DNA of 64,000 bases from a virus (lineage: Duplodnaviria; Caudoviricetes): positions 1 through 64,000 of the IMG/VR virus record IMGVR_UViG_2593339225_000003. One strand, 5' to 3'. The translations under genes and the position numbers were made by a program. Position 1 is the stretch's first letter. Every line of letters starts with the position of its first letter. Below, piece by piece: positions 3,066 to 51,420 of this stretch. A model generated the notes under the pieces. The model saw nothing but the letters and a program-made list of their open reading frames with translations, was not told where the DNA came from and made no database searches.

Positions 3066-3464
3066 TCATAATAATTCTTTTGCAACCAATAAATATGTTT
3101 TTTTATCTTGGTAATACAATGATTCTAAAAACCCATATGTATTCATTGGTCTAAATTTTTGCAAAATATCTTTTGCAATAAAAATATAATTGATTTTAGA
3201 AGTTTCATCCTCGCAATTACCATAATATGATAGCCATTTTGAAGGATGTTGCTCATTGTGTATTGGATTATATTTATCAATCAAAAACCCTTCATATATT
3301 TCTGCTAAATATTGAGTTGCTATTTTTGCGATATAAATACCAGCTATTTCATCAGCCCAATATTCCTTTTTCAAATGGTCATTATTTCTGCGCTGAATAT
3401 CATTGGTTTCTCCAATATATATAATAGTTCCTGCGTGATTAATATAAAAATATAAATAATGCAA
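3066..3464 (-). CDS. Small GIY-YIG nuclease-domain protein
   Basis: YLY...IYIGET...RR...H, conserved E and P-x-HN; lower GC than its neighbours. Confidence 0.7.
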   Translation of the reverse strand: MHYLYFYINHAGTIIYIGETNDIQRRNNDHLKKEYWADEIAGIYIAKIATQYLAEIYEGFLIDKYNPIHNEQHPSKWLSYYGNCEDETSKINYIFIAKDILQKFRPMNTYGFLESLYYQDKKTYLLVAKELL

Positions 3465-3465
3465 T

Positions 3466-3894
3466 TTATCGCCTCACTTTATAATGCGGTTTTTCTTCAT
3501 CAAACAACCAATATCGCAGAAAGTCGTCTGCAACAATAGCTAAAAGAGATAGCAAAAACCACAGAAAAGAATATAATAAGCAAATCTGCCCTAAGATATT
3601 AAATGGTTGATTGCTATAATCCCACACCTCCAGTTTGAATATTAGGTTAATTGCCACACCTGCCAAAAATTCTATTGCAGTAATACCAACTGAGCATATT
3701 AGCATTTGTTTCCATAATGGCATATCCCAATCAAACCATTCGTTGATTCCGCCGCAAAATATAAAACAAATTCCACCGACAATAAACATAGTCCAATGGC
3801 TATGACCGCGCCACAACATTTCAATGCAAAAATATGTCGCCCCGCCAATTAAGAACAAGACGACATATTTGAATATCATTTTAAGTTTCATCAT
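3466..3894 (-). CDS. Four-TM membrane protein (putative ABC-permease/CmpB-like family seen in phage tail regions)
   Basis: IEMLWRGHSHWTM, VWDYSNQPFNILGQIC motifs; four hydrophobic helices. Confidence 0.65.
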   Translation of the reverse strand: MMKLKMIFKYVVLFLIGGATYFCIEMLWRGHSHWTMFIVGGICFIFCGGINEWFDWDMPLWKQMLICSVGITAIEFLAGVAINLIFKLEVWDYSNQPFNILGQICLLYSFLWFLLSLLAIVADDFLRYWLFDEEKPHYKVRR

Positions 3895-4627
3895 TTCTAT
3901 TTATTTCCTTCCAAACATCAGACTGATATTTTTCGGGTATATCCATACCATAAGTGACCCTACTAATAGTGTTCAGTGAACGTAAGGAATTAATATAAGC
4001 CTTGAGGCTATTAAAATATGTTGTATGATATGCAATGTATTGTGTTGCGGCATTTGCTATCGCAATAATATCTACGGCGGGATAGAATTTACATAATTCT
4101 CCATCTTCGTGATAAGGTAATACTTCTTGACTAGAACGTGCCAAAGTTTCTAACTTGAACAGATTTAGTTGGTCGTACTCCGTTAAAGAAAAATGATGTG
4201 TTTCCTCGTCAGAAAGAACCACATCAATTCCTGCAAATATTATATTGTTACAAGTATTGCTCATATCTTTGAGTTTTAGTTTCTTTGCATATGCTACTGT
4301 AATATCTTCCGGCTCTGGTTCTGACTCGGGGCTTGGCTCTGGCTCGGGATATGGCTCAATTTCTTCATCGTGTTCAATCAACTCATATAGTTCGTCATAT
4401 TCTTCTTTATCAATCTCAATAACATCGGCTGTAATTGCACCAATATCTTCTCGAACAACCTTCATCCAACCTGCGTGATAATAATTATCTTCAATTTGAA
4501 TACATTCAGCTTCTTGCTCGGTACAAGATATTAAAATATTATGCCGCAACTGTATCTTCCGAAGTTCCGAAGTCGTTGCTATCCCAACGAAAAACTGCCC
4601 ATTTATCACCTTGTAATATTTCATCAC
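3881..4627 (-). CDS. Tail-fibre-associated protein (DUF4376-like)
   Basis: HFSLTEYDQLNL, YHEDGELCKFY and YHTTYFNSLKAYI motifs; PE-rich linker; overlaps the RT 3' end. Confidence 0.55.
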   Translation of the reverse strand: MMKYYKVINGQFFVGIATTSELRKIQLRHNILISCTEQEAECIQIEDNYYHAGWMKVVREDIGAITADVIEIDKEEYDELYELIEHDEEIEPYPEPEPSPESEPEPEDITVAYAKKLKLKDMSNTCNNIIFAGIDVVLSDEETHHFSLTEYDQLNLFKLETLARSSQEVLPYHEDGELCKFYPAVDIIAIANAATQYIAYHTTYFNSLKAYINSLRSLNTISRVTYGMDIPEKYQSDVWKEINRNDET

Positions 4628-5867
4628 TCAACCCTCCTTGTTTTAATTTTCTAAAATACGTTTTAGTTATTTTATAACCGCCAAATAATTCATCATATAA
4701 CTTTAACATACTTTTAACTGTGTGGTAAGACTGAGCTAATTTGGCGTGTGCCAACCACGATTGCATTGAATTATACACATCGTCCAACTCCATTACGCCA
4801 TTATCGACTTTTATTTTGAACTTTTTAAGTTTTCTTCTCATTCTAACTATCCCACTTCTTACCAGTGTTTTCACAAGACGTTTTCCAACAACGCGATATT
4901 TTATTTTTAGAAAAGAAAATTCTTTTGTTGCTTTTACAATTTTTGTTTTCTTTTCGTTAAAGGTTAATCCTAATGTATCACACACTTCTTTCATACCTTT
5001 ATATAATTCTTGTAAAACTTCTTTACTTTGATGAATTATTATTCCGTCATCCATATATCTTACATAACGTTTCATACTTCGTTTGTCTTTGATATAATGG
5101 TCTAATTTATTTGGAACTACTAAAGCAAGGATTTGAGATATTTGACTTCCGAGGCAAATACCTTTCATTTGATTATTTTCAAGAGCTTTTAACGAAAATT
5201 CTCTTTCTGCATTATTTTTGATTTTCAATAAATCTGGTCTTTGATATGATTTTACAACTTCCATAATAAGATTAACGATGCGCTTATCTTCATAATATTC
5301 ATTGAGAACATTATAACAAGTTGAATGTGGAATACTATCGAAAAAACTCTTAAAATCAAAAGTGAGGATATAAAAATCCTCACCATAATCTTTAATAGAT
5401 TCTCTTAAAAAATTTTCTGCCCTTCTTCGAGCAAAATCAGCGCCTTTTCCCTCGGTACTCGCTCCATTATCATAAATTAAAGTCGGTCTTATCATAGGTA
5501 TCATCGAATAGTCACAAATAACACGCTGAGTAATCCTATCACTAAATTGTATAGGTGTGATTATTCGTTCTTTACCTCTTTCAAATAAAGTAATATGAGA
5601 GGTGTTCTCTAATGGCGGCAACTTATAATTATCTATATAGTCCAGCGTTTTAGATATTTGCGTCATTGAAGTTTGGCAGTATTTTTGCGGTTTGCCTTTC
5701 CACATAACACCTTTTCTATATTTCTTTATTGAATTATAATAATGTTGCATAGTCATTACTTTATCATAATCATCTGCTTTTATAGTTTTAACTCGTGCGG
5801 CTTTCTTTTCTGCTCTACGAATTTTGTCACGTTCAATCCTTGCTCTAATTCTTTCTTGTTGATTCAA
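4539..5867 (-). CDS. DGR reverse transcriptase (442 aa)
   Basis: RT motifs FDFKSFFDSI, GICLGSQISQ, YVRYMDD and FSFL; ERGKERII and SWLAHAK are typical of DGR RTs; downstream of TR and avd; TTG start. Confidence 0.95.
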   Translation of the reverse strand: MNQQERIRARIERDKIRRAEKKAARVKTIKADDYDKVMTMQHYYNSIKKYRKGVMWKGKPQKYCQTSMTQISKTLDYIDNYKLPPLENTSHITLFERGKERIITPIQFSDRITQRVICDYSMIPMIRPTLIYDNGASTEGKGADFARRRAENFLRESIKDYGEDFYILTFDFKSFFDSIPHSTCYNVLNEYYEDKRIVNLIMEVVKSYQRPDLLKIKNNAEREFSLKALENNQMKGICLGSQISQILALVVPNKLDHYIKDKRSMKRYVRYMDDGIIIHQSKEVLQELYKGMKEVCDTLGLTFNEKKTKIVKATKEFSFLKIKYRVVGKRLVKTLVRSGIVRMRRKLKKFKIKVDNGVMELDDVYNSMQSWLAHAKLAQSYHTVKSMLKLYDELFGGYKITKTYFRKLKQGGLSDEILQGDKWAVFRWDSNDFGTSEDTVAA

Positions 5868-6181
5868 GAATATTACCTACCTTTCTGGTTTTCCTTCGTT
5901 TAGCCTGATATATTTTGCTGAAACTAGCTAACATAGTTGAGCATAAAAATAAGTTCAGCAAGTGCTTATCTATGCAAGAAGCGTTCCGCTCAACCGTAAC
6001 GAATCGCCACCATAGCGAGTTTTTGTTAAACACAAAAACGTATAATTTACTATCATTAGATAGAGGGTTAAACTCTCCTTCTCAATTCAATAAATCAATA
6101 CTAGTTCACAAAGAATTAATAAAAATTCAAAAAGAATAAAGATTCTTAATTCACACATAATACATTGCTACTTATGAATGG

Positions 6182-21803: not shown

Positions 21804-24800
21804 TTATAAATTATTTTTCTCTCTTAACATTTCTAACATAAATTGCTTTTTGAACAATTCGTATCTCTGTCTTTCTTGCTTGTCCATTGTGCTTAATGTG
21901 TTTTTGTCTATGTTGCCGTAGATGTGATAGACTGGCGCGGAACTTAGTGTCACATCGCCGCCGTACTTCGTTACCTTGTTTGTCACACCTCTTGCGCTGT
22001 CTGCAAAATTGCCGTAACTTGAAGATAAGAAACTGCTCATTTTGCCGATAACGTCTGAGATGAATTTTTGCGGGTCAGAAGAAAACTTCCATAAGTTGTC
22101 GGTCATACCTGCATTAAATACTTGTGAGCCTTGCGGCATCATAGTATATTGACCCTGACTGAGTTTGCCAAAAATGGCTTCTAAACCTTCTTCTTGGGTG
22201 ACTGATACTCCACCGGCAGAATGACGTGTACCTTTAGCGTGATGATTAACGATGGCGTTTTTGAACAACAGCGGATTAACGTCATTGAAATTGTTATACT
22301 TATAAACCTCTTTCATTATGGCATTATAAGCTCGTTCTCTTACCGAAGTAGTGTCAGAACTGTCGCCAACATAACCATAATAATCTCTGCCGCGGAATTT
22401 GACTTTATAGTAATAATTGCCACTTGCTGCATCATAACCGTGACCCAAATATTTTGGGGTTGTATCACTATTATCAGTTCCACCAACGTTAATGCCTGTA
22501 AGCTGATTTAACTTGTTTATATAATCAGAAATACTATTACCCAAACCATCAAGGCTACCAGACACACTGTCAATAGAATCCGAAGTTGCACTAATAGCAT
22601 CACTTGTAGAACTAATAGCGTCATCAAGATAACCTATTTGAGTTTCACAATTATCAATTTGCGTGTTAAGGTCATTAATTTGTCTATCGGTATCATAAAT
22701 TTTACCTTGTAAAAATTCCATTGTACCGATAAGAGTATCGTTGTCGCCCTTATATCTCTGAATCGCGGCTTGTGCGCTACTCCATAGATAATCAAACTCT
22801 GCGCGGGTTTTAGTTGTATAAGTATAAGTATAATTCCATAAATTGCTATACAAAGTGCCATTATCATTGTCAATCATACGACAAGCATCTTCATATAACT
22901 TGCGGGAATTATCAAGATAAGCGTCTATCTCGTCAATCTTGGACTCAAGGTGTTCAACTTGCGCGTCAATAGCAGCCTTGCGCTGTTCAATCATTTCTGA
23001 ATATCTTGTTTCTTCTTCTTCAAGCGCGGAAATACGTTTATCTTTTTCCTGCTCGTCAAGATAGTCTTTGAGGTCTTTGCTGCTTTCGGCGTAATTGTCG
23101 GCGGCTTGTTTTTGAGATTTTTTGCCGGCAGAACTGTCGTCGAGTTGCGCGATTGCAAGTGCGAGGGCATCTTTGGCGGCGGACTTTTGCTTTTCGGATA
23201 ATTCATCCTGTGCTTTCTTTTCTTCATATAAAGCCTCGATTTCCTCTTTGCGTTTACTAATTAATTTAGAATAGGCATCCTTTTGGTCATCGAGTGCAGA
23301 TTTCTTATCCTCTAAGGAATCAATACTATCTTGAAGTGCGGATTTTTCATTTTCTTTAGTTTGTTTAATATAATCGATTGTAAGGTCAATTAAAGATTGA
23401 ATATCGTCCTGCGCACCCTCTAAACTATCTTTGTAATCTTCGAGAGCATCTTTGGCATCCTCTAAACCATCCTTGTAATCTTGAAGTGCGGATTTCTGCG
23501 ATTCAAGCGCATCTTTTTGGGATTCGAGGGCGGATGTTGCGCCATTAGTTTTACTTGTGAACTCATTTGTCGAAGAATTTAAACTACTAAGCCAACTGTC
23601 GTAAATTGCAGCATAATTGGCAACAGTATTAAACGACTGTTTCATAGCATCTGTATAAGCCGTAGTTTTATTTGCTACATCTTTTGCTTGGGCTAAAGCA
23701 TAATAGTGTTTTGTAAGGCTTTCGATACTATTAGATTCTTCATCATATGCTTTTGCAGTCGCATAGGCTTGGGCTTCTTCAACACTCATATTCAAGATAG
23801 ATTCATATAAAGACGTAACTTGGTCTAATAATAGAGATTTAGCTTTTGCGGCTATGTAATTCTTGTATGCCTGGGAATTAGTATTAATTTGACCATTTTC
23901 GTCAATTAAAAGATTTAAATATTCGGGTTCAAGCTCTAATAATTTTTGTAAATCATCCGTTGAATAATAGCCATTATCATTGAAGTTTTCTTGAATATCT
24001 TGAATGTCCGAAACAACAGATTGTAAATCATCTAAATCATTTGACAATTTTTCAATTTCTGCTGAAAGTACTTTAATTCCTATGGCTTTACTTGCAATCC
24101 CATCAAGTGATTCTTTTACTGCATTAAGGCTGTTTGCATCCTCACTGGTTGGCATATTCTTTGCCCAACTCTCAAATTGATTATCAATTTCAGTTTGGGT
24201 GCTATTAATAAGTTCTTCTAATGCTACATCTAAGTCATCTGTGCGGTTAGCAAGTTCGGGGAACTTTTCAAATAAATCAATTAAATCGCTCTCTGATAAA
24301 TCTCCGTTTTTAATTCCTTCAAGTGCATCTGATAATTCGGTAAGCCTTGTCTTAAATCCATTAACGACTTCTTGGACATTTTCGTTTGATATTAAATCGC
24401 TAAATGCCACTTTTGCATCTGAGGCTATCGAGCCAGTCACTTGTTCTGCTTGTTCAATTTGAGCGGCAAGCCCTTTAAAAGATTCAGAAGTTGTGTCGGT
24501 AATAAGACCGACATCCTTCATATTATCTACCATAGCTTTTACATCATCATTGCTATTATATAAATTTTCAACTTCTGCGGCTGTTAAACCATCTTTTGCA
24601 GCTTTTTCTAATTCTTCTCTACCTTTGGCAAAACGGTCTGAATTAAAAATATCTTTAAATACCAAATCAAAGTTATCAGATGTTGCAGCTAAATAGGCGT
24701 TTTGCACATCCATTATTTTGTCATAAGCTGCTTTAGCATCGTCTGACAAAGTAGTATAATCATAATCAGCTATTTTTTCTCTTAATTCATTAAGTTTAGG

Positions 24801-25835
24801 AACAAACTCATCTAACCATTGTTCTGCTACATCTTTGGTCTTTTCGTTGGTAGGGTTAAGATATTCACCAAGCATAAAACGGAAGTAATCTTCATTAGAC
24901 ATATATGCGCCGCCGCCCGCCAAGGGATTTTGCTGGTTGAATTGTTCATTAACCGAATCTACAAAATTCTTTTCATTTTTACCTTTTGCAGTTTCTAAGT
25001 TCTTTTTTTCAAGAGCAATTTGTTTTTCAAGTTCAGCGTTGACCTTTCTTAGACGACTAAGTTCGGCTTGTTCAACAATCGTTAAAGTGTCTTTTCTTAA
25101 TAATTCATCAATACGTTTTTTAGTAGTATTTAGGTCATCATTAAGTCCAGATATTTTATCCTGTAACTCTTTAACCTCACTGGCACTTTCTTCTAATCTC
25201 TCAGAGGCACTTTTAATCTTGCTTACCAATGAAACAATCACAGCAATCGCCGTTGCTGCAATGGTAGCAAATAGCAAAATTGGATGCGAAGAAAAAGCCA
25301 CCTTTAATCCGTTAAGAGCCGCAGTTAATCCACCTGTTGCCGCAGACAATCCAGAAGTTGTAGCAGTAGCAGCTACATTTGCCGCCGAATGTGCAGCGGT
25401 TGAAACAGCGGCTTCTGCCTCCGCTGCGGACATTCCTTTATTCATTAAAATTGAAATTTGCTGTTCAGCGTTCAATCCAGAAGTAGATATAATTAAAGCT
25501 AAATTTGTAGCGTTTAGATTTGAAGCCGCTATTGCGGCAGCTATTTGCTGTTGTGTTAATCCACTCTCAGCAAGGGATTCGGCAGTGATTGCTTCTACCA
25601 AAGATGTTTTGGTTAATGCCGCATATAAATCACTTGCACTCATTGTATTTGCAGAAGCAATCATAGTTGCTCGCGAAGCAGAAAGACCAGACTCCGTTAA
25701 AATTTGTGCTTGCTCTGCGGCAGTTAAACTCGTTTTCGCTAAAGTAGCAGAAAGGTCACTTTCAGCCATACCAACAGTAGCGTTTCTGACGAGATTTATA
25801 TTTGCAGCTCCCTCTAAACCCAGAAGTTTTAATTG
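21804..25835 (-). CDS. Tape measure protein, exon 2 (1343 aa)
   Basis: Long Ala-rich and coiled-coil protein with HAKGT motif; no RBS of its own; in frame with exon 1 after intron removal (...FIKNFG|QLKLLG...). Confidence 0.8.
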   Translation of the reverse strand, partial: QLKLLGLEGAANINLVRNATVGMAESDLSATLAKTSLTAAEQAQILTESGLSASRATMIASANTMSASDLYAALTKTSLVEAITAESLAESGLTQQQIAAAIAASNLNATNLALIISTSGLNAEQQISILMNKGMSAAEAEAAVSTAAHSAANVAATATTSGLSAATGGLTAALNGLKVAFSSHPILLFATIAATAIAVIVSLVSKIKSASERLEESASEVKELQDKISGLNDDLNTTKKRIDELLRKDTLTIVEQAELSRLRKVNAELEKQIALEKKNLETAKGKNEKNFVDSVNEQFNQQNPLAGGGAYMSNEDYFRFMLGEYLNPTNEKTKDVAEQWLDEFVPKLNELREKIADYDYTTLSDDAKAAYDKIMDVQNAYLAATSDNFDLVFKDIFNSDRFAKGREELEKAAKDGLTAAEVENLYNSNDDVKAMVDNMKDVGLITDTTSESFKGLAAQIEQAEQVTGSIASDAKVAFSDLISNENVQEVVNGFKTRLTELSDALEGIKNGDLSESDLIDLFEKFPELANRTDDLDVALEELINSTQTEIDNQFESWAKNMPTSEDANSLNAVKESLDGIASKAIGIKVLSAEIEKLSNDLDDLQSVVSDIQDIQENFNDNGYYSTDDLQKLLELEPEYLNLLIDENGQINTNSQAYKNYIAAKAKSLLLDQVTSLYESILNMSVEEAQAYATAKAYDEESNSIESLTKHYYALAQAKDVANKTTAYTDAMKQSFNTVANYAAIYDSWLSSLNSSTNEFTSKTNGATSALESQKDALESQKSALQDYKDGLEDAKDALEDYKDSLEGAQDDIQSLIDLTIDYIKQTKENEKSALQDSIDSLEDKKSALDDQKDAYSKLISKRKEEIEALYEEKKAQDELSEKQKSAAKDALALAIAQLDDSSAGKKSQKQAADNYAESSKDLKDYLDEQEKDKRISALEEEETRYSEMIEQRKAAIDAQVEHLESKIDEIDAYLDNSRKLYEDACRMIDNDNGTLYSNLWNYTYTYTTKTRAEFDYLWSSAQAAIQRYKGDNDTLIGTMEFLQGKIYDTDRQINDLNTQIDNCETQIGYLDDAISSTSDAISATSDSIDSVSGSLDGLGNSISDYINKLNQLTGINVGGTDNSDTTPKYLGHGYDAASGNYYYKVKFRGRDYYGYVGDSSDTTSVRERAYNAIMKEVYKYNNFNDVNPLLFKNAIVNHHAKGTRHSAGGVSVTQEEGLEAIFGKLSQGQYTMMPQGSQVFNAGMTDNLWKFSSDPQKFISDVIGKMSSFLSSSYGNFADSARGVTNKVTKYGGDVTLSSAPVYHIYGNIDKNTLSTMDKQERQRYELFKKQFMLEMLREKNNL

Positions 25836-25861
25836 CATTATTATTATAACTGTGTTATAAT
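25833..25861 (+). promoter_or_regulatory. Sigma-A promoter for the intron cargo gene
   Basis: TTGCAT (25833-25838), 17 bp spacer, TGnTATAAT (-10 at 25856-25861), then AAGAGGTG RBS and ATG 25881. Confidence 0.75.
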
Positions 25862-25880
25862 TAAAAAGAGGTGAGCTAAT

Positions 25881-26213
25881 ATGAGTGAATATTCTAAAAT
25901 AATAGGGACAATCAAAATAACTTGTCCTAATTGTAAACATAATATCTCAAATCAACGCATAATGAACGACCAAATAACAGAGTTTGGCGAATGTGTTAAT
26001 TGCGGCAAAATGACATATCATAAAATACTAAATCCTATAACTTCACAAGAAAAACAATCTAAACCGTTAATTAAATGTCCATATTGTCAATCAACTAATA
26101 TTAAAAAGATTTCTAAATCTTCAAAATTAGTACACGGAATAACGTTTGGCATTTTCGCGGCAAGCAAACTCGTACATCAATGGCATTGTAATAATTGTAA
26201 AAGTGATTTTTAA
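25881..26213 (+). CDS. Zinc-ribbon protein (110 aa), antisense cargo inside the intron
   Basis: Four CxxC motifs (CPNC, CVNC, CPYC, CNNC) and a short hydrophobic segment (LVHGITFGIFAA); own promoter, RBS and terminator. Confidence 0.85.
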   Translation: MSEYSKIIGTIKITCPNCKHNISNQRIMNDQITEFGECVNCGKMTYHKILNPITSQEKQSKPLIKCPYCQSTNIKKISKSSKLVHGITFGIFAASKLVHQWHCNNCKSDF

Positions 26214-26217
26214 TTAT

Positions 26218-26246
26218 AGACCGTTCACTCTGGACGGTCTTTTTTG
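26218..26246 (+). terminator. Rho-independent terminator of the cargo gene
   Basis: AGACCGTTCA-CTC-TGGACGGTCT followed by a T run. Confidence 0.85.
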
Positions 26247-26744
26247 TGTTTGGAACATACGTTAATAGCAAATAAAATAAGGCTTTTATCTACTATAAGG
26301 AATGGTGTCCTCTGAACGTTCCCATTGTTAAGACTTTTATCCCGACATTGCTTTCACAACTTCTACCTATCGGATTATATAGTCAAAGAATACACTCAAT
26401 GGGTGCGCTGCTCGTTATCAATTATATATCTGTCCGGCGTTATTTTTTAACCGTAGAAATCTCACTCCCGTACACGGCGGTTTGACTATTTGCCTTATTT
26501 TTCGGCTACAAATTATAATTGCAAATAACTGCAAATAAATAATGGCTTAGTTAAGCCATTTTCGCAAGTGTTTTCAATAATTGCAACTAAATTTGTGTAG
26601 TGAGCATTATGACTTCAAGCAATTTCTCCTTTTGTTGTTTTAGAACTTTCTTCTTATGGAATTGATTTTCTCGCCATTATGATAAATCTTCCCCATAATA
26701 GACCAATTAACGCCTCTGGGTAGCGTTATACTCCTGTTGGAGTA

Positions 26745-29036
26745 ACCGAAGTTCTTGATAAATGCGACTATAGGAATTGCTATCATTGCCGTTCCTAAAA
26801 GTCCAAATGTACTTGTTAATCCATCAAGTACATTTAATAATCCAGTGAGTAAATCAATAATAGCTCCCATTTCATTTGTTTGGAAAATATTTTGAAAAAT
26901 ACCCACTCCTGTTTCTTTGAGCGCATTAATTTTGTAATCAAGCGACTCCATAATAATTGACATTTCGTTTTCTGCATTGCCGGCACTATTAGCCATAGTG
27001 TCAAGAGATTTATCTACTGCGCCAAAGTTTCCGATGATACTTGCGATGATTTGTCCTTGACGTTTACCGGCAAGTTTTTCAAGCAAATCTGCTTGTTGTT
27101 TGTCTGTAAGTTCATCATAAATATCCGAAATATCTCTTAATAATTCAGTTGTTGATTTATATTCAGTTTTATCTTTATCTCTAAATAATGAGATTCCACC
27201 TGGATGATTAGCTGTTTTTGTGAGTTCTGCTATTTCACCATTTAATACTTCTACGCCACCAATAAATTCTTCGGTTTCTTCATCGTAACCGCGAATACGC
27301 ATTGAAACAGTTTTCAAGGCATTACCAACAGATGCAGCATCTCTTGTGATTTCTGTTGCTGCCGTACCAAGCGCAATAGTTTCCTCTAACGTATTATTTG
27401 CTTCTTTCATTGCCGAAGATGAACGGGTCAAAAAGTCAACAATGTTTTCATTAGAAACTGCTTGTGAGTTACCAATAGCATTTATTTTACTTGCAACTCC
27501 ATCAAGTGCATCATCGGCTTCTATATCAAACGCTTTCATTGCGCTAACCAAACCATCAGTAGCCTTTTCAATATCTACTCCGGGCGAAATAGAAGCAAAG
27601 ATAGAAGATGTTTTAGCCATTGTTTCGGCATCTTTAATCGAATATCCCAAACGCGACCATTCGGCAGCTGCGCTAATTACTTCTTTGGTTGTTACACCTA
27701 ATTGCTTGGCGGTATCGTTGGCAGTATAATAAAACTCCTTTAATTGAGTTTCTGTAGCATCAGTGGTTTTCTTTAAATCAACCAACGCAGTATCAAGGCT
27801 TATAACATCACTAACGCCAGTCTTTACTGCCCTTATAGCAGAATAAATAAGTGTTGAAGCACTAATATATCTTGTAATACTCGAAACCGCACCTTTTAAA
27901 CTATCTCCAAATGTTTTACCTTTTAGCCCTGCCGCAGAAGCAGCACTGTCAACTTCTTTGTAAGAATTTCTAAGCTGATTAAGAGTGTTCTTGTGAACGT
28001 TTCCACTTGCCGTCGCAGAATCAAGTTGGTTAATTAAATTGCGGACTATTTGCCCATATGTTTTTGCTGCTCTTGAATTTTTGTTGAGCCAAGATTCCAT
28101 TTGATTACGCAAAGTCGTCACTTCGATAGATGTAGCAAACTGCCTCTGAGTATTATTTACAGTTGTTAAACTATTCCGCACTCTATTCAAAGTAGACTCA
28201 TAATCATTGAAATGTGCAACAAGTTGTTCCGATGTTAAATTACCAGAATTAGCAAATGTTTGTTCAAGCGTATTCAAATGTTCAAGGTCTGTTTCAACTT
28301 GTAACAAAGTATTGTGTAATTCTTGATATGTAGCTTCACTTAATTGCGCGGAATCAACTTTACCACTAACCGCAGAAAATGATTGTTGGACTTTACTTAT
28401 TTGTGCGCCAATATCGCCATTAGCCAAAGCATTAGTAGCTCTTTGTAAAGAACTGTTAAATTCTTCAACCGCCCGCCTTCTTTGCTCAAAGGACTGAGTA
28501 AACTGATTTTGAGAATGAATAATATCACCGGTTTCATTTTCAAATACCCTAAGAACTTCAACTCCGCGATTTAACTCATCGACACCAGTTAATCGAATAC
28601 TAATATTTCCGTTGCTCAACTGGCGGGTTCTTATCTCATCAATCGAAACGACCATATTCTGCAATCCCCGCGTAGCATTATTGATTGCGTTTTGGTCAAG
28701 ACCCATTTGGTGCAATAAATTGCCGACATCACCAAGCCCACCGTTGTTCAACGTAATTCGATGTATTTCTCCGCTAAAATTCTGCGCGAATTGCTGCCCC
28801 GCCGATTGTCCAATATTGCCCATTTGCTGAACAACATTTTGAACATTTGCGCTATTGACATTTATTGCAAACGTATGATTGCTAAACGCTTCTTGAATTT
28901 GCTGAATGAGATTCGCAGTGTTGACAGTTACATTGTGTAAATTTACTTGGCGATTATTGATTTCGTTTTTGATTTGATTTTCTACGCCAGAGGTATCTAA
29001 TCTCGCTTTGATAATAGCTTCAAAATTATTAGCCAT
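26745..29036 (-). CDS. Tape measure protein, exon 1 (764 aa; TP901-type core)
   Basis: LDTALVDLKK, AAAEWSRLGYS and VGNALKTVSMRIRG motifs; unspliced ORF runs on to a stop at 26640 (798 aa). Confidence 0.85.
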
Positions 29037-50057: not shown

Positions 50058-50131
50058 TGGAGCTGAAACCGAGAGTCGGACTCGGATTAGTAGGTTACAA
50101 ATCTACGGTACTACCATTATACTATTTCAGC
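50058..50131 (-). tRNA. tRNA-Thr(UGU)
   Basis: Acceptor stem GCTGAAA/TTTCAGC, anticodon loop TT-TGT-AA, encoded CCA; atypical T-loop TCCGACT. Confidence 0.75.
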
Positions 50132-50149
50132 ATATTACCCTTGCGGGTA

Positions 50150-50954
50150 TTAAGCGGCATTTCGATAATATGATGAATGTCGCGGGATATTATATTTATC
50201 GCACCATTTACGAACCGCATTGTCTGTTACTCCATATATTTTACCGACACTTACAAAAGAATTTTTTGATAGTAAATCAATTAATTCTTTCTTACTTGGT
50301 ATATATTGAATTAATTGTTTGTTATAACAATCAGGACATAATAGTGTTTTGCATTTTCCACTTAATTTTTTACCACACTGCAAACACGCATAATCTCTTT
50401 TTACTCTAATAGAAACATCTTTATTTTCTTCTTGCCTTTGTGCAAAAGATTTTTTATTGTTTTTTATTGCAGTTTGCCTAATCGGGTATTGTTTATTGTC
50501 ATCTTTCCAAGTATTTCCAACATTTATTTGAGAGATTGTATTAAAATGCAGTGAATACTTTTTTGCAATTTCATTTTCAGTTAAAATGTTTTCTTCTAAA
50601 TCAACAATTATTTTATTAACAGTATCTTGATTTAATTTTTTATAGTATAGCATATCGCCTCCAGCAGTGAGATTATAACCATTTGGATATTTGGTGTTAT
50701 ATTTAGCAATATAATATATTTCTTTTTCTTTTAATTCTTCTTTTTTATATCCTTCGATAACCTCAAAATTAAAATTGTTAAATCCAAAATAGTTAAGCAT
50801 ATGATGAAAGTAAGAATTTTCTGTTGATTTACCAGTATCTCTTTTGACATCACTCTTATTTTTTATGTTGATTATATCTTCTTTTTATATTTGTACTTTG
50901 TCCAATATAAGATTCACCTGTTATTTTGTTCGTAAATTTGTATATTCCTATCAT
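50150..50954 (-). pseudogene. GIY-YIG homing endonuclease, frameshifted in an A6 run
   Basis: MIGIYKFTNKITGESYIGQS starts at 50954 and stops at 50856; removing one A at 50859-50864 joins it to ORF 50150-50800 (YNLTAGGD, Zn finger, HTH). Confidence 0.75.
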
Positions 50955-51134
50955 AATAAAACTTCCTTTCTGCAAAAAGATATAAAAAAACAAAGTTAGT
51001 AATTGTTGTTGCAGCAACAAAAAGAGAGCGACTCTCTGTCCTAACTTTGTATTTTGACAAATGTATTCGATTGTGAACAAAAAACTTTCGATTTCTAAAA
51101 ACAATAGAAACAAACGATGTTTAATAAAATATCA

Positions 51135-51169
51135 AATCAGTATAACTCTACCAACTGAGCTACACGAGA
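51135..51169 (-). pseudogene. 5' fragment of a tRNA gene
   Basis: TCTCGTGTAGCTCAGTTGGTAGAG (acceptor 5' strand plus D-arm) right after tRNA-Asp; no T-arm or 3' half found. Confidence 0.55.
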
Positions 51170-51174
51170 ATATA

Positions 51175-51250
51175 TGGCGGCTCTATGGGGACTCGAACCC
51201 TAAACTCCGCCGTGACAGGGCGGTGCTTTAACCAGTTAAACTATAAAGCC
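51175..51250 (-). tRNA. tRNA-Asp(GUC)
   Basis: Anticodon arm CCGCC-CTGTCAC-GGCGG, GGTTCGAG T-loop, CCA end. Confidence 0.9.
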
Positions 51251-51253
51251 ATA

Positions 51254-51341
51254 TGGTGGGCAGGAAAGGATTTGAACCTTTGAATCGTTGCCGAAACAGT
51301 TTTACAGACTGCTTGCTTTGACCAGACTTGCATACCTACCC
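51254..51341 (-). tRNA. tRNA-Tyr(GUA)
   Basis: GCAGT-CTGTAAA-ACTGT anticodon arm, long variable arm, GGTTCAAAT, CCA end. Confidence 0.9.
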
Positions 51342-51344
51342 ATA

Positions 51345-51420
51345 TGGTAGCGGATGCCGGAGTTGAACCGTGCGCCACTCGATTGAAAGCCGAGTATCTT
51401 GACCGCTTGACTAATCCGCC
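51345..51420 (-). tRNA. tRNA-Glu(UUC)
   Basis: CTCGG-CTTTCAA-TCGAG anticodon arm, GGTTCAAC, CCA end. Confidence 0.88.

What the first reader, a model, noticed from the sequence alone, without database searches (positions are those of the whole stretch)
25836..26744. Group I intron splits the tape measure gene and carries an antisense, non-endonuclease cargo gene
Seen on the minus strand: exon 1 ends ...AAC TTC GGT (26745); the intron ends in G (25836); exon 2 starts CAA TTA AAA. Joining gives FIKNFG-QLKLLG and a 764+1343 = 2107-aa protein. The guide TTAATTG-GTC (26710-26701) pairs 7/7 with exon 2 CAATTAA (P10) and with exon 1 GGT including the G.U wobble (P1). Core helices: P3 AAGGAG (26631-26626)/TTCCTT (26302-26297); P4 TGCTT/GAGCA; P6 GCG/CGT; P6a CCCATTG/CAATGGG; P7 G(A)GGACA (26312-26306)/TGTTCC (26257-26252); 13-bp P8 (26296-26265). 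Established: phage group I introns usually carry a sense-strand homing endonuclease or no ORF. Here the P9 region holds a 110-aa zinc-ribbon gene on the opposite strand with its own promoter and terminator. Inference: the ribozyme acts as a silent slot that lets a moron-type accessory gene sit inside an essential late gene.
Basis: partly seen in the sequence, partly recalled or inferred. Interest (0 to 1): 0.92.

Follow-up and report, generated by a model that had tools for sequence, protein, structure and literature searches.

The report
Tape-measure intron with backwards zinc-ribbon gene
The giant tail tape-measure gene of this rumen phage is split by what is almost certainly a self-splicing group I intron, and the intron always carries a small zinc-ribbon gene that points the opposite way and has its own promoter in place of the usual homing nuclease.

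Summary
On the minus strand the tape-measure (TMP) frame stops making sense after ...FIKNFG (26745) and resumes at QLKLLG (25835). The 909 bases between (26744..25836) are a conserved structured RNA.

I found the same element at the same TMP site in 13 distinct sequences from viral, metagenome and genome collections. On these, 98.1% of cells pair in a group I-type structure (P1-P9 with the P3/P7 pseudoknot). 39 of 120 pairs show compensatory changes, against 2-9 for slid controls. U(-1) and the terminal G are invariant. Intron-less TMP alleles exist and are colinear.

Rfam's RF00028 does not see this intron. Exon ligation was not observed in RNA.

All 18 intron loci carry the antisense tandem zinc-ribbon ORF. 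It has a terminator, a -10 element and an RBS, and shows no nuclease signature.

New here:
- A hairpin loop in the intron's 5' domain pairs with exon 2 +10..+19.
- Ribozyme identity tracks the zinc-ribbon gene, not the exons.

Group I introns in TMP genes are already published (PMC2504315). The antisense non-nuclease passenger was not found in my searches of the literature. This scan has noted the same element before on other DNA (48 notes in at least 33 genomes).

The parts
26745..29036 (-). Exon 1 of the tape-measure gene (764 codons, ends ...FIKNFG)
   Evidence: ORF and translation. Pfam PhageMin_Tail, 1.9e-23. The tail aligns to residues 739-995 of the uninterrupted TMP of L008.
25836..26744 (-). 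Group I-type intron, 909 nt
   Evidence: Conserved as nucleotide sequence, not as protein: stops follow KNFD in L004, L009 and L010. Boundaries in 16 loci, with T at -1 and G at the last base in all. Covariation. Single copy in the genome.
21804..25835 (-). Exon 2 of the tape-measure gene (1343 codons plus stop, starts QLKLLG)
   Evidence: Exon 2 residue 26 aligns to L008 TMP residue 1025, colinear with exon 1 ending near residue 998. No conserved start codon or Shine-Dalgarno before it in the relatives.
26701..26710 (-). Internal guide. GTC (26703-26701) pairs with exon 1 GGT (P1, with the U.G wobble). TTAATTG (26710-26704) pairs with exon 2 CAATTAA, 25835-25829 (P10).
   Evidence: P1: 13 of 13 rows paired, middle pair A-U 7 and G-U 6. 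P10: positions +1 and +2 pair in 13 of 13 rows. Position +2 is A-U in 11 rows and G-C in 2, L004 and L030.
26729..26744 (-). First hairpin inside the P1 loop (TACTCC/GGAGTA)
   Evidence: Helix 3: 4 of 6 pairs with changes on both sides.
26709..26727 (-). Second hairpin inside the P1 loop (AACGC/GCGTT). Its loop ACCCAGAG(G), 26721-26713, is complementary to exon 2 +10..+18 (25826-25818).
   Evidence: Stem: helix 4, 3 of 4 pairs compensatory. Loop with exon 2: 7-9 contiguous pairs in 13 of 13 rows in the same register, with matched changes in L029/L032, L030, L037 and L004.
26654..26698 (-). P2 with inner hairpin and conserved loop ATAATGGC
   Evidence: Helix 5: 7 of 15 pairs compensatory.
26642..26648 (-). 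AAGTTCT, complementary to exon 1 -11..-5 (AGAACTT, 26755-26749)
   Evidence: Helix 1: 7 pairs, one compensatory change (G-C to A-U in L034). Its role is unknown.
26297..26631 (-). Ribozyme core: P3 (26631-26626 with 26302-26297), P4 (26621-26616 with 26414-26409), P5 (26613-26610 with 26420-26417) with a large P5 extension, P6 (26408-26406 with 26318-26316), P6a (26403-26397 with 26327-26321)
   Evidence: P3's last pair reads G-U 11, A-U 1, U-A 1. P5 has 1 compensatory pair, P5a 4 and P6/P6a 4. P4 is invariant.
26252..26312 (-). P7 (G(A)GGACA 26312-26306 with TGTTCC 26257-26252) enclosing P8 (26296-26265)
   Evidence: P7 is invariant in 13 of 13 rows, so it is uninformative. P8 has 13 bp, 4 of them compensatory.
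26510..26594 (-). Insertion of about 85 nt in the terminal loop of a P5 side hairpin, shared only with L037. It holds three ATAAYTGCAA-type repeats and a hairpin.
   Evidence: Alignments A1 and A5. Relatives' contigs skip 26509..26595. Repeats D1. Hairpin 26560-26541.
26218..26240 (.). Hairpin used on both strands: intrinsic terminator of the zinc-ribbon gene (+), and the P9-position stem-loop of the intron (-)
   Evidence: The terminator scan lists it on the + strand with a T-tail. The stem varies with compensation among relatives (GACCG/CGGTC against GTACCG/CGGTAC, read from A5).
25881..26213 (+). Antisense gene for a 110-aa tandem zinc-ribbon protein (four CxxC pairs; C-terminus ...WHCNNCKSDF)
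   Evidence: An intact ORF is present in 18 of 18 intron loci (L009's is cut by the contig end). 154 homologs, none named. Invariant residues C66 P67 C69 G90 H102 C103 N104 N105 C106 K107 S108 D109 F110.
25833..25873 (+). Expression signals of the zinc-ribbon gene: TTGCAT (25833-25838, lying across the 3' splice site), a 17-nt spacer, TGT + TATAAT (25853-25861), and the RBS GAGGTG (25868-25873)
   Evidence: Read from the sequence. Not listed by the promoter scan, because the -35 matches 3 of 6. L006 has the same TTGCAT-17-TATAAT and L004 has TTGACA-17-TATAAT upstream of its ORF (read).
25856..25867 (-). 3' arm of a 12-bp helix with 26218-26207 that would loop the whole ORF out of the intron RNA and bring the 3' splice site (20 nt further on) next to P9
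   Evidence: Inverted repeat I4, 12 of 12 complementary. 1 of 300 shuffles reaches it. Relatives with longer 3' tails have an analogous helix, with one compensatory change in L004 (read).

Best explanation
The 909 bases at 26744..25836 (minus strand) are a group I intron. It is removed from the late tape-measure transcript by the usual two transesterifications, joining ...NFG to QLK... to give one 2107-aa tape-measure protein.

Anatomy of the ribozyme:
- The ribozyme proper occupies the first 493 nt (P1 to P7).
- It has an unusual 5' domain: a 3-bp P1 that encloses two hairpins.
- It has a large P5 extension and a P6a/b arm, and no room between P7 and P3 for P7.1/P7.2.

Recruiting the 3' splice site (inferred):
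- The last 416 nt hold a gene on the other strand, so the 3' splice site is far from the core.
- I infer that three pairings bring it in. One is a long P10 (7 bp). The second is a pairing of a hairpin loop (ACCCAGAGG) with exon 2 +10..+18. The third is a helix that loops the ORF out.

The antisense gene:
- It has its own extended -10 promoter, RBS and terminator. The terminator hairpin is the intron's P9-position stem on the other strand.
- It encodes a tandem zinc-ribbon protein with no nuclease signature.
- It is present in every copy and diverges with the ribozyme, not with the exons. I therefore think it most likely acts as a nucleic-acid-binding factor tied to the element itself (its maintenance, spread or splicing), not as an interchangeable host-benefit moron.

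Shown: the RNA structure by covariation, the splice-site rules, intron-less alleles, and conservation of the ORF and its signals. Inferred: splicing in vivo, the roles of the exon-2 pairings, and any function of the protein. The confidence given is for the intron and antisense-gene anatomy. My confidence in the element-tied role of the protein alone is about 0.35.
For: Position of the break:
- TMP similarity stops at KNFG/KNFD and resumes at Q/R/H-L/I-K. In L004, L009 and L010 a stop follows KNFD at once, yet nucleotide similarity continues.
- Uninterrupted TMP alleles exist (L008, L011, L013; 2759 aa). The two window exons align to L008 colinearly.

Structure:
- 13 distinct sequences give 98.1% of cells paired and 39 of 120 pairs with compensatory change. 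0 of 500 shuffles reach this. Slid controls give 38-45% paired and 2-9 pairs.
- RNAalifold independently recovers P2, P4, P5, P6 and P8 (116 pairs, 38 compensatory).
- The P3 closing pair changes G-U to A-U to U-A. That favours the pseudoknotted P3 over RNAalifold's alternative, which is broken in L030.

Splice sites:
- T at -1, G at the last intron base and C at +1 in all 16 loci with both ends.
- P10 position +2 covaries: A-U in 11 rows, G-C in 2.
- The loop-exon 2 duplex is 7-9 bp in 13 of 13 rows.

Context:
- The same phage group holds a textbook intron (RF00028, 71.9 bits, L005).

The antisense gene:
- The ORF is present in 18 of 18 loci.
- Terminator. Promoter and RBS read from the sequence.
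- Only zinc-ribbon families match, and there is no PADLOC hit.
- The AF2 model has pLDDT 69. It has no PDB match at E <= 0.001; the nearest are RNA-polymerase zinc ribbons.
- Ribozyme identity (76-97%) correlates with zinc-ribbon identity (r = 0.52). It does not correlate with exon 1 identity (22-92%, r = 0.19). Computed on 10 of 13 rows, near-duplicates L035, L032 and L023 dropped.
Against: - Rfam's group I model gives nothing for this stretch even at E up to 10, although it finds another intron in L005.
- P1 has only 3 exon pairs, two of them wobbles in the window, and encloses about 55 nt. That is atypical.
- P4 and P7 never vary, so covariation says nothing about them.
- My likening of the conserved blocks to the classical P/Q/R/S elements, and of the bulged A plus G-C pair in P7 to the guanosine site, rests on recall.
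- The loop-exon 2 duplex is weak against shuffles taken singly: window 42 of 2000, L030 134, L004 161, L029 412. The cross-pairing table does not always favour a sequence's own exon.
- The -35 hexamer is poor (3 of 6), and the scan tool did not call the promoter.
- One PHROG annotated as HNH endonuclease matches residues 13-63 at E = 0.0062. So 'non-endonuclease' means no recognisable nuclease, not proof of none. H102, N104, N105 and D109 are invariant.
- The zinc-ribbon C-terminal domain also occurs in 73 of 80 viral loci where nhmmer sees no such ribozyme.
Confidence: 0.85

Rival explanations
1. The zinc-ribbon gene is an ordinary moron: an accessory gene that benefits the phage or lysogen, for example by superinfection exclusion, anti-defence or host takeover. 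It merely exploits the intron as a harmless parking place inside an essential gene. The ribozyme part is as in the best explanation.
For: - The gene has its own promoter, RBS and terminator, and is oriented against late transcription.
- In the related locus L014 the gap at the same TMP site holds 4.5 kb of extra genes. These include an HTH protein and a 525-aa ATPase that hits the defence families NsnB (6.8e-62) and AriA, next to a zinc-ribbon homolog.
- The C-terminal domain is widespread on varied N-termini in large phages.
- 4 of 22 family members weakly match Lar restriction-alleviation.
Against: - Morons are typically variable, but this gene is present in 18 of 18 copies and co-diverges with the ribozyme.
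- It has no PADLOC hit.
- It keeps its place next to the 3' splice site even where other cargo is added.
Confidence: 0.3
2. The zinc-ribbon protein is the intron's mobility protein: a new, minimal kind of homing endonuclease or recombination-promoting DNA binder, encoded backwards.
For: - The intron sits at one site in TMPs as little as 22-31% identical over the last 100 exon residues, while the ribozymes are 77-95% identical. Examples are window-L034 (29% against 88%) and L039-L024 (31% against 95%).
- Intron-less alleles exist.
- The protein is always present.
- Polar residues H102, N104, N105 and D109 beside a CxxC knuckle are invariant.
- There is a weak match to a PHROG annotated as HNH.
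- Antisense homing endonuclease genes are known in nuclear rDNA group I introns (PMC9548176, title and abstract seen in the listing).
Against: - No match to any nuclease family in Pfam, NCBIfam or PDB.
- The model of the C-terminal domain is poor (pLDDT 46-51 over residues 80-100).
- Mosaic recombination of TMP segments between phages could give the same discordance without homing.
Confidence: 0.15
3. There is no splicing. The tape measure is made as two separately translated proteins. The conserved RNA between them is a decayed intron or another structured element, with the zinc-ribbon gene simply lying between two genes.
For: - No exon-exon junction was seen.
- Rfam is negative.
- In the window an ATG stands directly before CAA.
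- In L014 the downstream part starts with its own ATG ORF, and no ribozyme of this family is seen.
Against: - The ATG is not conserved: L024 has TAG, L034 AAG, and L030 and L033 TTG before the splice site. No Shine-Dalgarno precedes it.
- A decayed intron would not keep 98% of pairs through 39 compensated positions.
- It would not keep U(-1) and the terminal G in every copy.
- It would not keep guide pairings that covary with exon 2.
- The uninterrupted homolog is colinear across the joint.
Confidence: 0.05

Closest known systems
Group I introns TMP-IVS1, IVS2 and IVS3 in tape-measure genes of Bacillus cereus-group prophages (Tourasse and Kolsto 2008, PMC2504315; section 'Introns inserted in prophages' read)
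   Same: Self-splicing-type group I introns that interrupt the TMP gene of phages of Firmicutes. They are patchily distributed, and intron-less alleles exist. Different introns adapt to one site through P1 and P10. The introns target the most conserved stretch of the host gene.
   Different: Those are IA1/IA2 introns and are recognisably related to other phage introns. They carry a homing endonuclease gene, a remnant of one, or nothing. The present intron is missed by RF00028 and has no room for P7.1/P7.2. It has two hairpins inside P1 and an extra exon-2 pairing, and it always carries an antisense zinc-ribbon gene.
IStrons (CdISt1, BcISt1; Tourasse et al. 2014, PMC4227781; passages read)
   Same: A group I ribozyme at the 5' end, followed by kilobase-scale protein-coding cargo. 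The 3' splice site therefore lies far from the catalytic core.
   Different: IStron cargo is an IS200/IS605 or IS607 transposon that supplies mobility. The elements are multi-copy and insert at many sites. Here the cargo is a non-transposase gene on the opposite strand, there is a single copy per genome, and the site in one gene is fixed.
Nuclear rDNA group I introns with antisense homing endonuclease genes (position L2066; PMC9548176; title and abstract only, listing)
   Same: A protein gene on the strand opposite to the ribozyme inside a group I intron.
   Different: Those are eukaryotic, in rRNA genes, and the ORF is a His-Cys box homing endonuclease. Here the intron is in a bacteriophage protein-coding gene and the ORF has no nuclease motif.
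Phage T4 td, nrdB and nrdD/sunY introns (recalled, with the T4 review PMC2988022 seen in passages only)
   Same: Phage group I introns whose ORF is looped out of a peripheral helix and has its own promoter.
   Different: The ORFs are on the sense strand and are homing endonucleases (I-TevI, II, III), in IA2 ribozymes.

Membership tests
Group I intron | 5' splice site after a U that forms a U.G wobble with the internal guide (P1) | tested here: met
   T at -1 and its G partner in 13 of 13 rows. The P1 cells are 100% paired, but there are only 3 pairs (helix 2).
Group I intron | Intron ends in G (omega G); P10 pairs the guide with the start of exon 2 | tested here: met
   G at the last base in all 16 loci with both ends. 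P10 has 2-7 contiguous pairs, with +2 covarying: A-U in 11 rows, G-C in 2.
Group I intron | Core helices P3-P8 in the canonical order, with the P3/P7 pseudoknot and the P4-P6 domain | tested here: met
   P3 has 1 compensated pair, P5 1, P5a 4, P6/P6a 4 and P8 4. P4 and P7 are invariant and therefore uninformative. The order and topology fit.
Group I intron | Guanosine-binding G-C pair in P7 next to a bulged nucleotide; conserved P, Q, R, S sequence elements | tested here: inconclusive
   P7 reads G(A)GGACA with TGTTCC, with a bulged A followed by G-C. The likeness to the consensus elements and to the Tetrahymena site is judged from recall, not by a tool.
Group I intron | Match to the Rfam covariance model RF00028 | tested here: not met
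   No hit at gathering score or at E up to 10 on 25500-27100. There was none in 16 further related loci. The model does find another intron in L005 at 71.9 bits. Subgroup-specific models were not available.
Group I intron | Excision restores an open frame colinear with intron-less homologs | tested here: met
   L008, L011 and L013 carry an uninterrupted TMP. Exon 1 aligns to L008 residues 739-995, and exon 2 residue 26 aligns to residue 1025.
Group I intron | GTP-dependent self-splicing / ligated exons in RNA | not testable with these tools
   The only RNA data were assembled contigs of metatranscriptomes. See Tried and rejected.
Homing endonucleases (LAGLIDADG, GIY-YIG, HNH, His-Cys box, PD-(D/E)xK) | Catalytic motif or domain recognisable in the intron ORF | tested here: not met
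   - Pfam, single protein and 22 family members: zinc-ribbon families only.
- NCBIfam: zinc-ribbon families below their cut-offs.
- PHROGs: one HNH-annotated family at E = 0.0062 over the first zinc ribbon only.
- PDB by sequence and by fold: zinc fingers and RNA-polymerase zinc ribbons, none at E <= 0.001.
IStron | IS200/IS605 or IS607 transposase genes and IS ends fused to the 3' end of the ribozyme | tested here: not met
   The only ORF of 60 aa or more wholly inside the intron is the 110-aa zinc-ribbon gene. Its transposase-type zinc-ribbon matches are weak and cover the knuckle only. There is a single copy in the genome.
Anti-phage defence gene (PADLOC families) | Match of the cargo protein to a known defence family | tested here: not met
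   P0003 has 0 families at E <= 0.001.

The most novel reading that the evidence does not exclude
The ribozyme and its backwards zinc-ribbon gene are one co-evolving mobile unit of a new kind. The intron makes insertion into an essential, highly conserved site of the tape-measure gene harmless. An unusually long, tripartite grip on exon 2 lets it tolerate kilobases of cargo before the 3' splice site. The zinc-ribbon protein, with invariant His/Asn/Asp beside a zinc knuckle, supplies spread or retention without any known homing-nuclease fold. Related phages then use the same protected slot for defence-type genes, which cannot be deleted imprecisely without killing the phage.
Probability: 0.2. 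Interest if true: 0.85.

Novelty: new variant of a known kind. Interest (0 to 1): 0.62.

Why it matters
Group I introns in phages are regarded as carriers of homing endonucleases, or as empty relics. This one is different in three ways:
- It is a well-conserved ribozyme lineage, widespread in large gut and rumen phages.
- It is invisible to the standard Rfam model. Annotation pipelines will therefore call two truncated tape-measure genes.
- Its constant passenger is an independently expressed antisense gene of unknown function.

If it splices as inferred:
- An essential structural gene can serve as a protected locus for extra genes.
- There is a natural design for recruiting a 3' splice site across a long insert: P10, a loop-exon pairing and an ORF-closing helix. 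This is of interest for ribozyme engineering.

If the zinc-ribbon protein proves to drive intron spread or splicing, it would be a new class of intron-encoded protein.

For practical annotation, the junction ...TTCGRT | ... G | CAATTAAA marks a splice that should be joined.

Tried and rejected
**Rfam.** Searching the window and the stretch found no group I hit. I did not take this as refutation, because covariation is strong and RF00028 is built on other subgroups.

**GenBank phages.** Distant blastn with 25400-27200 gave only one 40-nt match under the end of the zinc-ribbon ORF. No close isolate is available.

**Related genomes of the host genus and order.** TMP relatives turned up in 3 of 41 genomes, counting its own. 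This was not useful for the intron.

**RNA evidence.** There were five RNA-labelled runs with small shares. I laid X15-X18 at 88% likeness.
- Contigs from the RNA libraries X16, X17 and X18 lie only on 26240-26722 (the ribozyme core), and partly come from relatives with other P5-loop inserts.
- None covers the exons next to the splice sites, and none joins 26745 to 25835.
- This gives no verdict on splicing or on expression of either strand. Conserved core sequence of relatives, or DNA in the libraries, would look the same.
- One X18 contig ends at 26240 in adapter-like letters. I draw nothing from it.

**An alternative P4.** I first considered TTGCTT with AAGCAA (26356-26351). I rejected it because that 3' strand belongs to a covarying hairpin inside P6b and the pairing would cross P6a.

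**RNAalifold's pairings for P3 and P7.** It paired GGAG (P3 5') with TTCC of P7 3', and GAGGA with TTCCT. I replaced these with the canonical pseudoknot, because the first is broken in L030 whereas P3 is compensated there.

**Exon 1 -11..-5 with AAGTTCT as the true P1.** Rejected: it has no U.G wobble, and it would put the splice site inside conserved coding sequence.

**ORF-closing helix.** It is clear in the window (12 bp) and in L004, L039 and L024, but not evident in L006, L029 or L037. I keep it as a candidate only.

**Interruptions at the same TMP site in L007, L012 and L014.** I found no similarity to this ribozyme by blastn or nhmmer, and no Rfam hit at E <= 0.1. I left these unexplained.

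**Structure of the zinc-ribbon protein.** The AF2 model is mediocre (pLDDT 69, pTM 0.36). Foldseek against PDB gives only generic zinc ribbons. The ESM Atlas gives unnamed viral clusters.

**Literature.**
- 'group I intron' + 'tape measure': 38 papers.
- The same plus 'zinc ribbon': 1 paper, on staphylococcal phage DW2, which I did not open.
- 'group I intron' + phage + cargo + 'defense system': 7 papers, none on this by title or abstract.
- I found no description of an antisense non-nuclease gene in a phage group I intron in these searches. Supplements were closed and I did not consult them. Table 2 and the figures of PMC2504315 were not seen.
Full report
**What is in the sequence**

On the minus strand an ORF of 798 codons (26640..29036) carries a PhageMin_Tail domain. 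It is followed, after a gap, by an ORF of 1378 codons (21804..25940). Tape-measure similarity to relatives ends at ...FIKNFG (residue 764, base 26745) and restarts at QLKLLG (residue 36 of the second ORF, base 25835). On the + strand a 110-codon ORF (25881..26213) with four CxxC pairs lies inside the gap.

**Relatives**

A protein-pattern scan of viral contigs gave 12 related loci from phage contigs of up to about 150 kb.
- L004, L006, L009 and L010 have the same interruption and the same antisense ORF.
- In L004, L009 and L010 a stop codon follows KNFD at once, yet similarity continues. The stretch is therefore conserved as nucleic acid, not as protein.
- L008, L011 and L013 have one uninterrupted TMP of 2759 aa.
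- The two window exons align to L008 colinearly: exon 1 reaches residue 995, and exon 2 residue 26 aligns to residue 1025.

Exact-pattern scans with conserved core motifs added more copies.
- Viral contigs gave 6 stretches.
- Metagenome contigs gave 10, and genome contigs gave 3.
- Of those last 13, 11 carry the element. L031 and L040 matched the pattern only and lack the other motifs.
- Two of the genome hits are MAG contigs labelled Clostridia and Gastranaerophilales.

With both ends present in 16 loci, the element is 826-1015 nt long. It always follows a T and always ends in G before a C. Thirteen sequences are distinct.

**Is it a group I intron?**

RNAalifold on the 13 sequences (exon 1 -15 to P7) predicts 116 pairs, 38 of them with compensatory changes. 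It cannot draw pseudoknots, so I replaced its two makeshift helices with the canonical P3 and P7 and added P1.

On that structure:
- 98.1% of 1558 cells are standard pairs.
- 39 of 120 pairs have changes on both sides.
- No shuffle out of 500 reaches the observed values.
- Sliding the 3' partners by 1-3 columns drops pairing to 38-45% and compensated pairs to 2-9.

Compensated pairs by helix:

| Helix | Compensated pairs |
|---|---|
| P2 with its inner hairpin | 7 of 15 |
| P5 | 1 |
| P5a | 4 of 6 |
| P6/P6a | 4 of 10 |
| P6b arms | 4 of 4 and 1 of 5 |
| P8 | 4 of 13 |
| P3 | 1 (closing pair G-U 11, A-U 1, U-A 1) |
| P4, P7 | invariant |

The order P3-P4-P5...P5'-P4'-P6...P6'-P7-P3'-P8-P7' is that of a group I core. 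So are the three-A joiner between P3 and P4, the bulged A followed by a G-C pair in P7, and the U.G wobble at the 5' splice site. My comparison with the classical consensus elements is from memory.

Against this, RF00028 does not match at any threshold tried, though it detects a different intron upstream of the TMP in L005 at 71.9 bits. I conclude that this is a genuine but atypical group I intron. The subgroup is not assigned. There is no space for P7.1/P7.2 between P7 and P3'.

**Unusual 5' domain and the grip on exon 2**

P1 has only three exon pairs (GGT or GAT with GTC). It encloses two hairpins that are both well supported: 4 of 6 and 3 of 4 pairs compensated.

P10 is 7 bp in the window. 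Its second pair covaries: A-U in 11 rows, G-C in L004 and L030.

- All 13 sequences have 7-9 contiguous pairs in this register.
- Changes are matched in L029/L032 (CCAAGAG with TTCTTGG), L030, L037 and L004.
- Single-sequence shuffle tests are weak (2-20%), so the case rests on the matched changes.

A 12-bp perfect inverted repeat (26218-26207 with 25867-25856) would loop out the whole ORF and place the 3' splice site 20 nt from the P9-position hairpin. Relatives with longer tails have an analogous helix, but three close relatives do not show one.

Exon 1 -11..-5 is also complementary to AAGTTCT just 5' of P3, with one compensated change in L034. I cannot say what this does.

Together these pairings offer a mechanism for finding a 3' splice site 416 nt beyond P7. 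That is inference.

**The antisense gene**
- The ORF is intact in 18 of 18 intron loci (L009's is cut by the contig end). It has one or two N-terminal zinc ribbons and a nearly invariant C-terminal module ending WHCNNCKSDF.
- Its terminator (26218-26240, + strand) was found by the scan. On the other strand it is the intron's P9-position stem.
- Its promoter reads TTGCAT-17 nt-TGT TATAAT. The -35 hexamer lies across the 3' splice site, and GAGGTG follows 7 nt before the ATG.
- The scan did not list the promoter because the -35 matches 3 of 6. L006 has the same arrangement, and L004 has a consensus TTGACA-17-TATAAT.
- Family searches give only zinc-ribbon models, mostly below their cut-offs.
- One PHROG annotated as HNH endonuclease matches at E = 0.0062 over the first ribbon. 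PADLOC gives nothing.
- The AF2 model (pLDDT 69) has no PDB neighbour at E <= 0.001. The nearest are RNA-polymerase zinc ribbons.
- There are 154 homologs in the large protein collection, none named.

**How the gene and the ribozyme travel**

Among 10 of the 13 sequences (near-duplicates L035, L032 and L023 dropped), ribozyme identity is 76-97%. It is unrelated to identity of the last 100 exon 1 residues (22-92%, r = 0.19), but it is related to zinc-ribbon identity (r = 0.52). For example, window and L034 are 29% identical in exon 1 against 88% in the ribozyme.

So the ribozyme and the zinc-ribbon gene move or persist as a unit relative to the exons. This could happen by homing or by mosaic recombination of TMP segments. 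No formal tree test was done.

**A wider family**

A scan for the C-terminal module gave 130 relatives in viral contigs, of which 80 were kept.
- nhmmer with the core alignment finds the ribozyme in 7 of 80.
- tblastn finds TMP halves flanking the gene in 30 of 80.
- In L072, L065 and L112 the TMP is cut at the same FIKNFD site. The gap is 1.7-2.6 kb. It begins with a recognisably related P1-P2 domain and ends G|CAATTAAAG. So more diverged introns of this kind exist.
- L014 and L007 carry another conserved non-coding sequence at the same site. In L014 the gap is 4.5 kb. It holds an HTH gene, a 525-aa ATPase matching defence families (NsnB 6.8e-62, AriA, weakly PtuA), a 289-aa ORF and a zinc-ribbon homolog next to the downstream part.

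**Known and new**

Group I introns in TMP genes of Bacillus cereus-group prophages were described in 2008 (PMC2504315, section read). Also published are:
- IStrons, which have long 3' cargo (PMC4227781, passages);
- antisense homing endonuclease genes in nuclear rDNA introns (PMC9548176, listing only).

I found no paper describing a phage group I intron with a conserved antisense non-nuclease gene.

Within this scan the same element has been reported repeatedly on other DNA: 48 notes in at least 33 genomes. Those follow-up reports reach the same reading. I treated them as leads only. My structural, covariation and literature results up to one search were obtained before I read them.

**Verdict**

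The group I reading is well supported by comparative evidence, though splicing is not shown. The cargo is a real antisense gene without a recognisable nuclease. Its 'moron' role is unproven, and its constancy argues for a function tied to the element. The novelty class is a new variant of a known kind.

Noticed in passing
L014 9437-14059; L007 7546 onward; L012 7804 onward: The same TMP site (after KN-x-G) is interrupted by other sequences. L014 and L007 share conserved non-coding blocks unrelated to this ribozyme and unseen by Rfam (examples are CATGAGATACATGA and GTTAGATGCAACGCTGC). In L014 the 4.5-kb gap holds an HTH gene, a 525-aa defence-type ATPase (PADLOC NsnB 6.8e-62), a 289-aa ORF and a zinc-ribbon homolog.
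   Followed up: partly
L072, L065, L112 (IMG/VR contigs of 90-146 kb), about 3180-5920 in locus coordinates: The TMP is cut at the same FIKNFD site by 1.7-2.6 kb. The gap has a diverged version of the P1-P2 domain, the same 3' junction G|CAATTAAAG, an antisense zinc-ribbon gene with a different N-terminus, and in L072 and L112 a further small CxxC ORF.
   Followed up: partly
L006 3136-4959; L005 8459-8883; L014/L015 8350-8889: Further interruptions at other positions in the N-terminal part of the TMP genes of relatives: about 1.8 kb, 0.42 kb and 0.54 kb, with shifts of frame. These may be more introns. I did not examine them.
   Followed up: no
L005 4194-4537: A textbook group I intron (RF00028, 71.9 bits) just upstream of the TMP match in a related phage contig.
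   Followed up: no
window 26510-26594: An insert of about 85 nt in a P5 side-loop, shared only with L037. It has three copies of an ATAAYTGCAA-type 14-mer and a terminator-like hairpin (26560-26541, minus strand). L029 and L032 have a different 27-nt insert at the same loop.
   Followed up: no
L004 3762-3828: A match to skipping-rope RNA (RF02924, 39.2 bits, gathering score 36.7) upstream of the TMP in a related 152-kb phage contig.
   Followed up: no
window 50061-51420: Four tRNA genes on the minus strand. The phage carries its own tRNA cluster.
   Followed up: no
window 26178-26217: The last codons of the zinc-ribbon ORF (WHCNNCKSDF) are conserved even at the nucleotide level among intron copies. 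They gave the only GenBank phage hit, 40 nt at 95% in an unannotated human-faecal phage contig. The stretch may serve both the protein and the intron RNA, as the 5' arm of the ORF-closing helix.
   Followed up: partly
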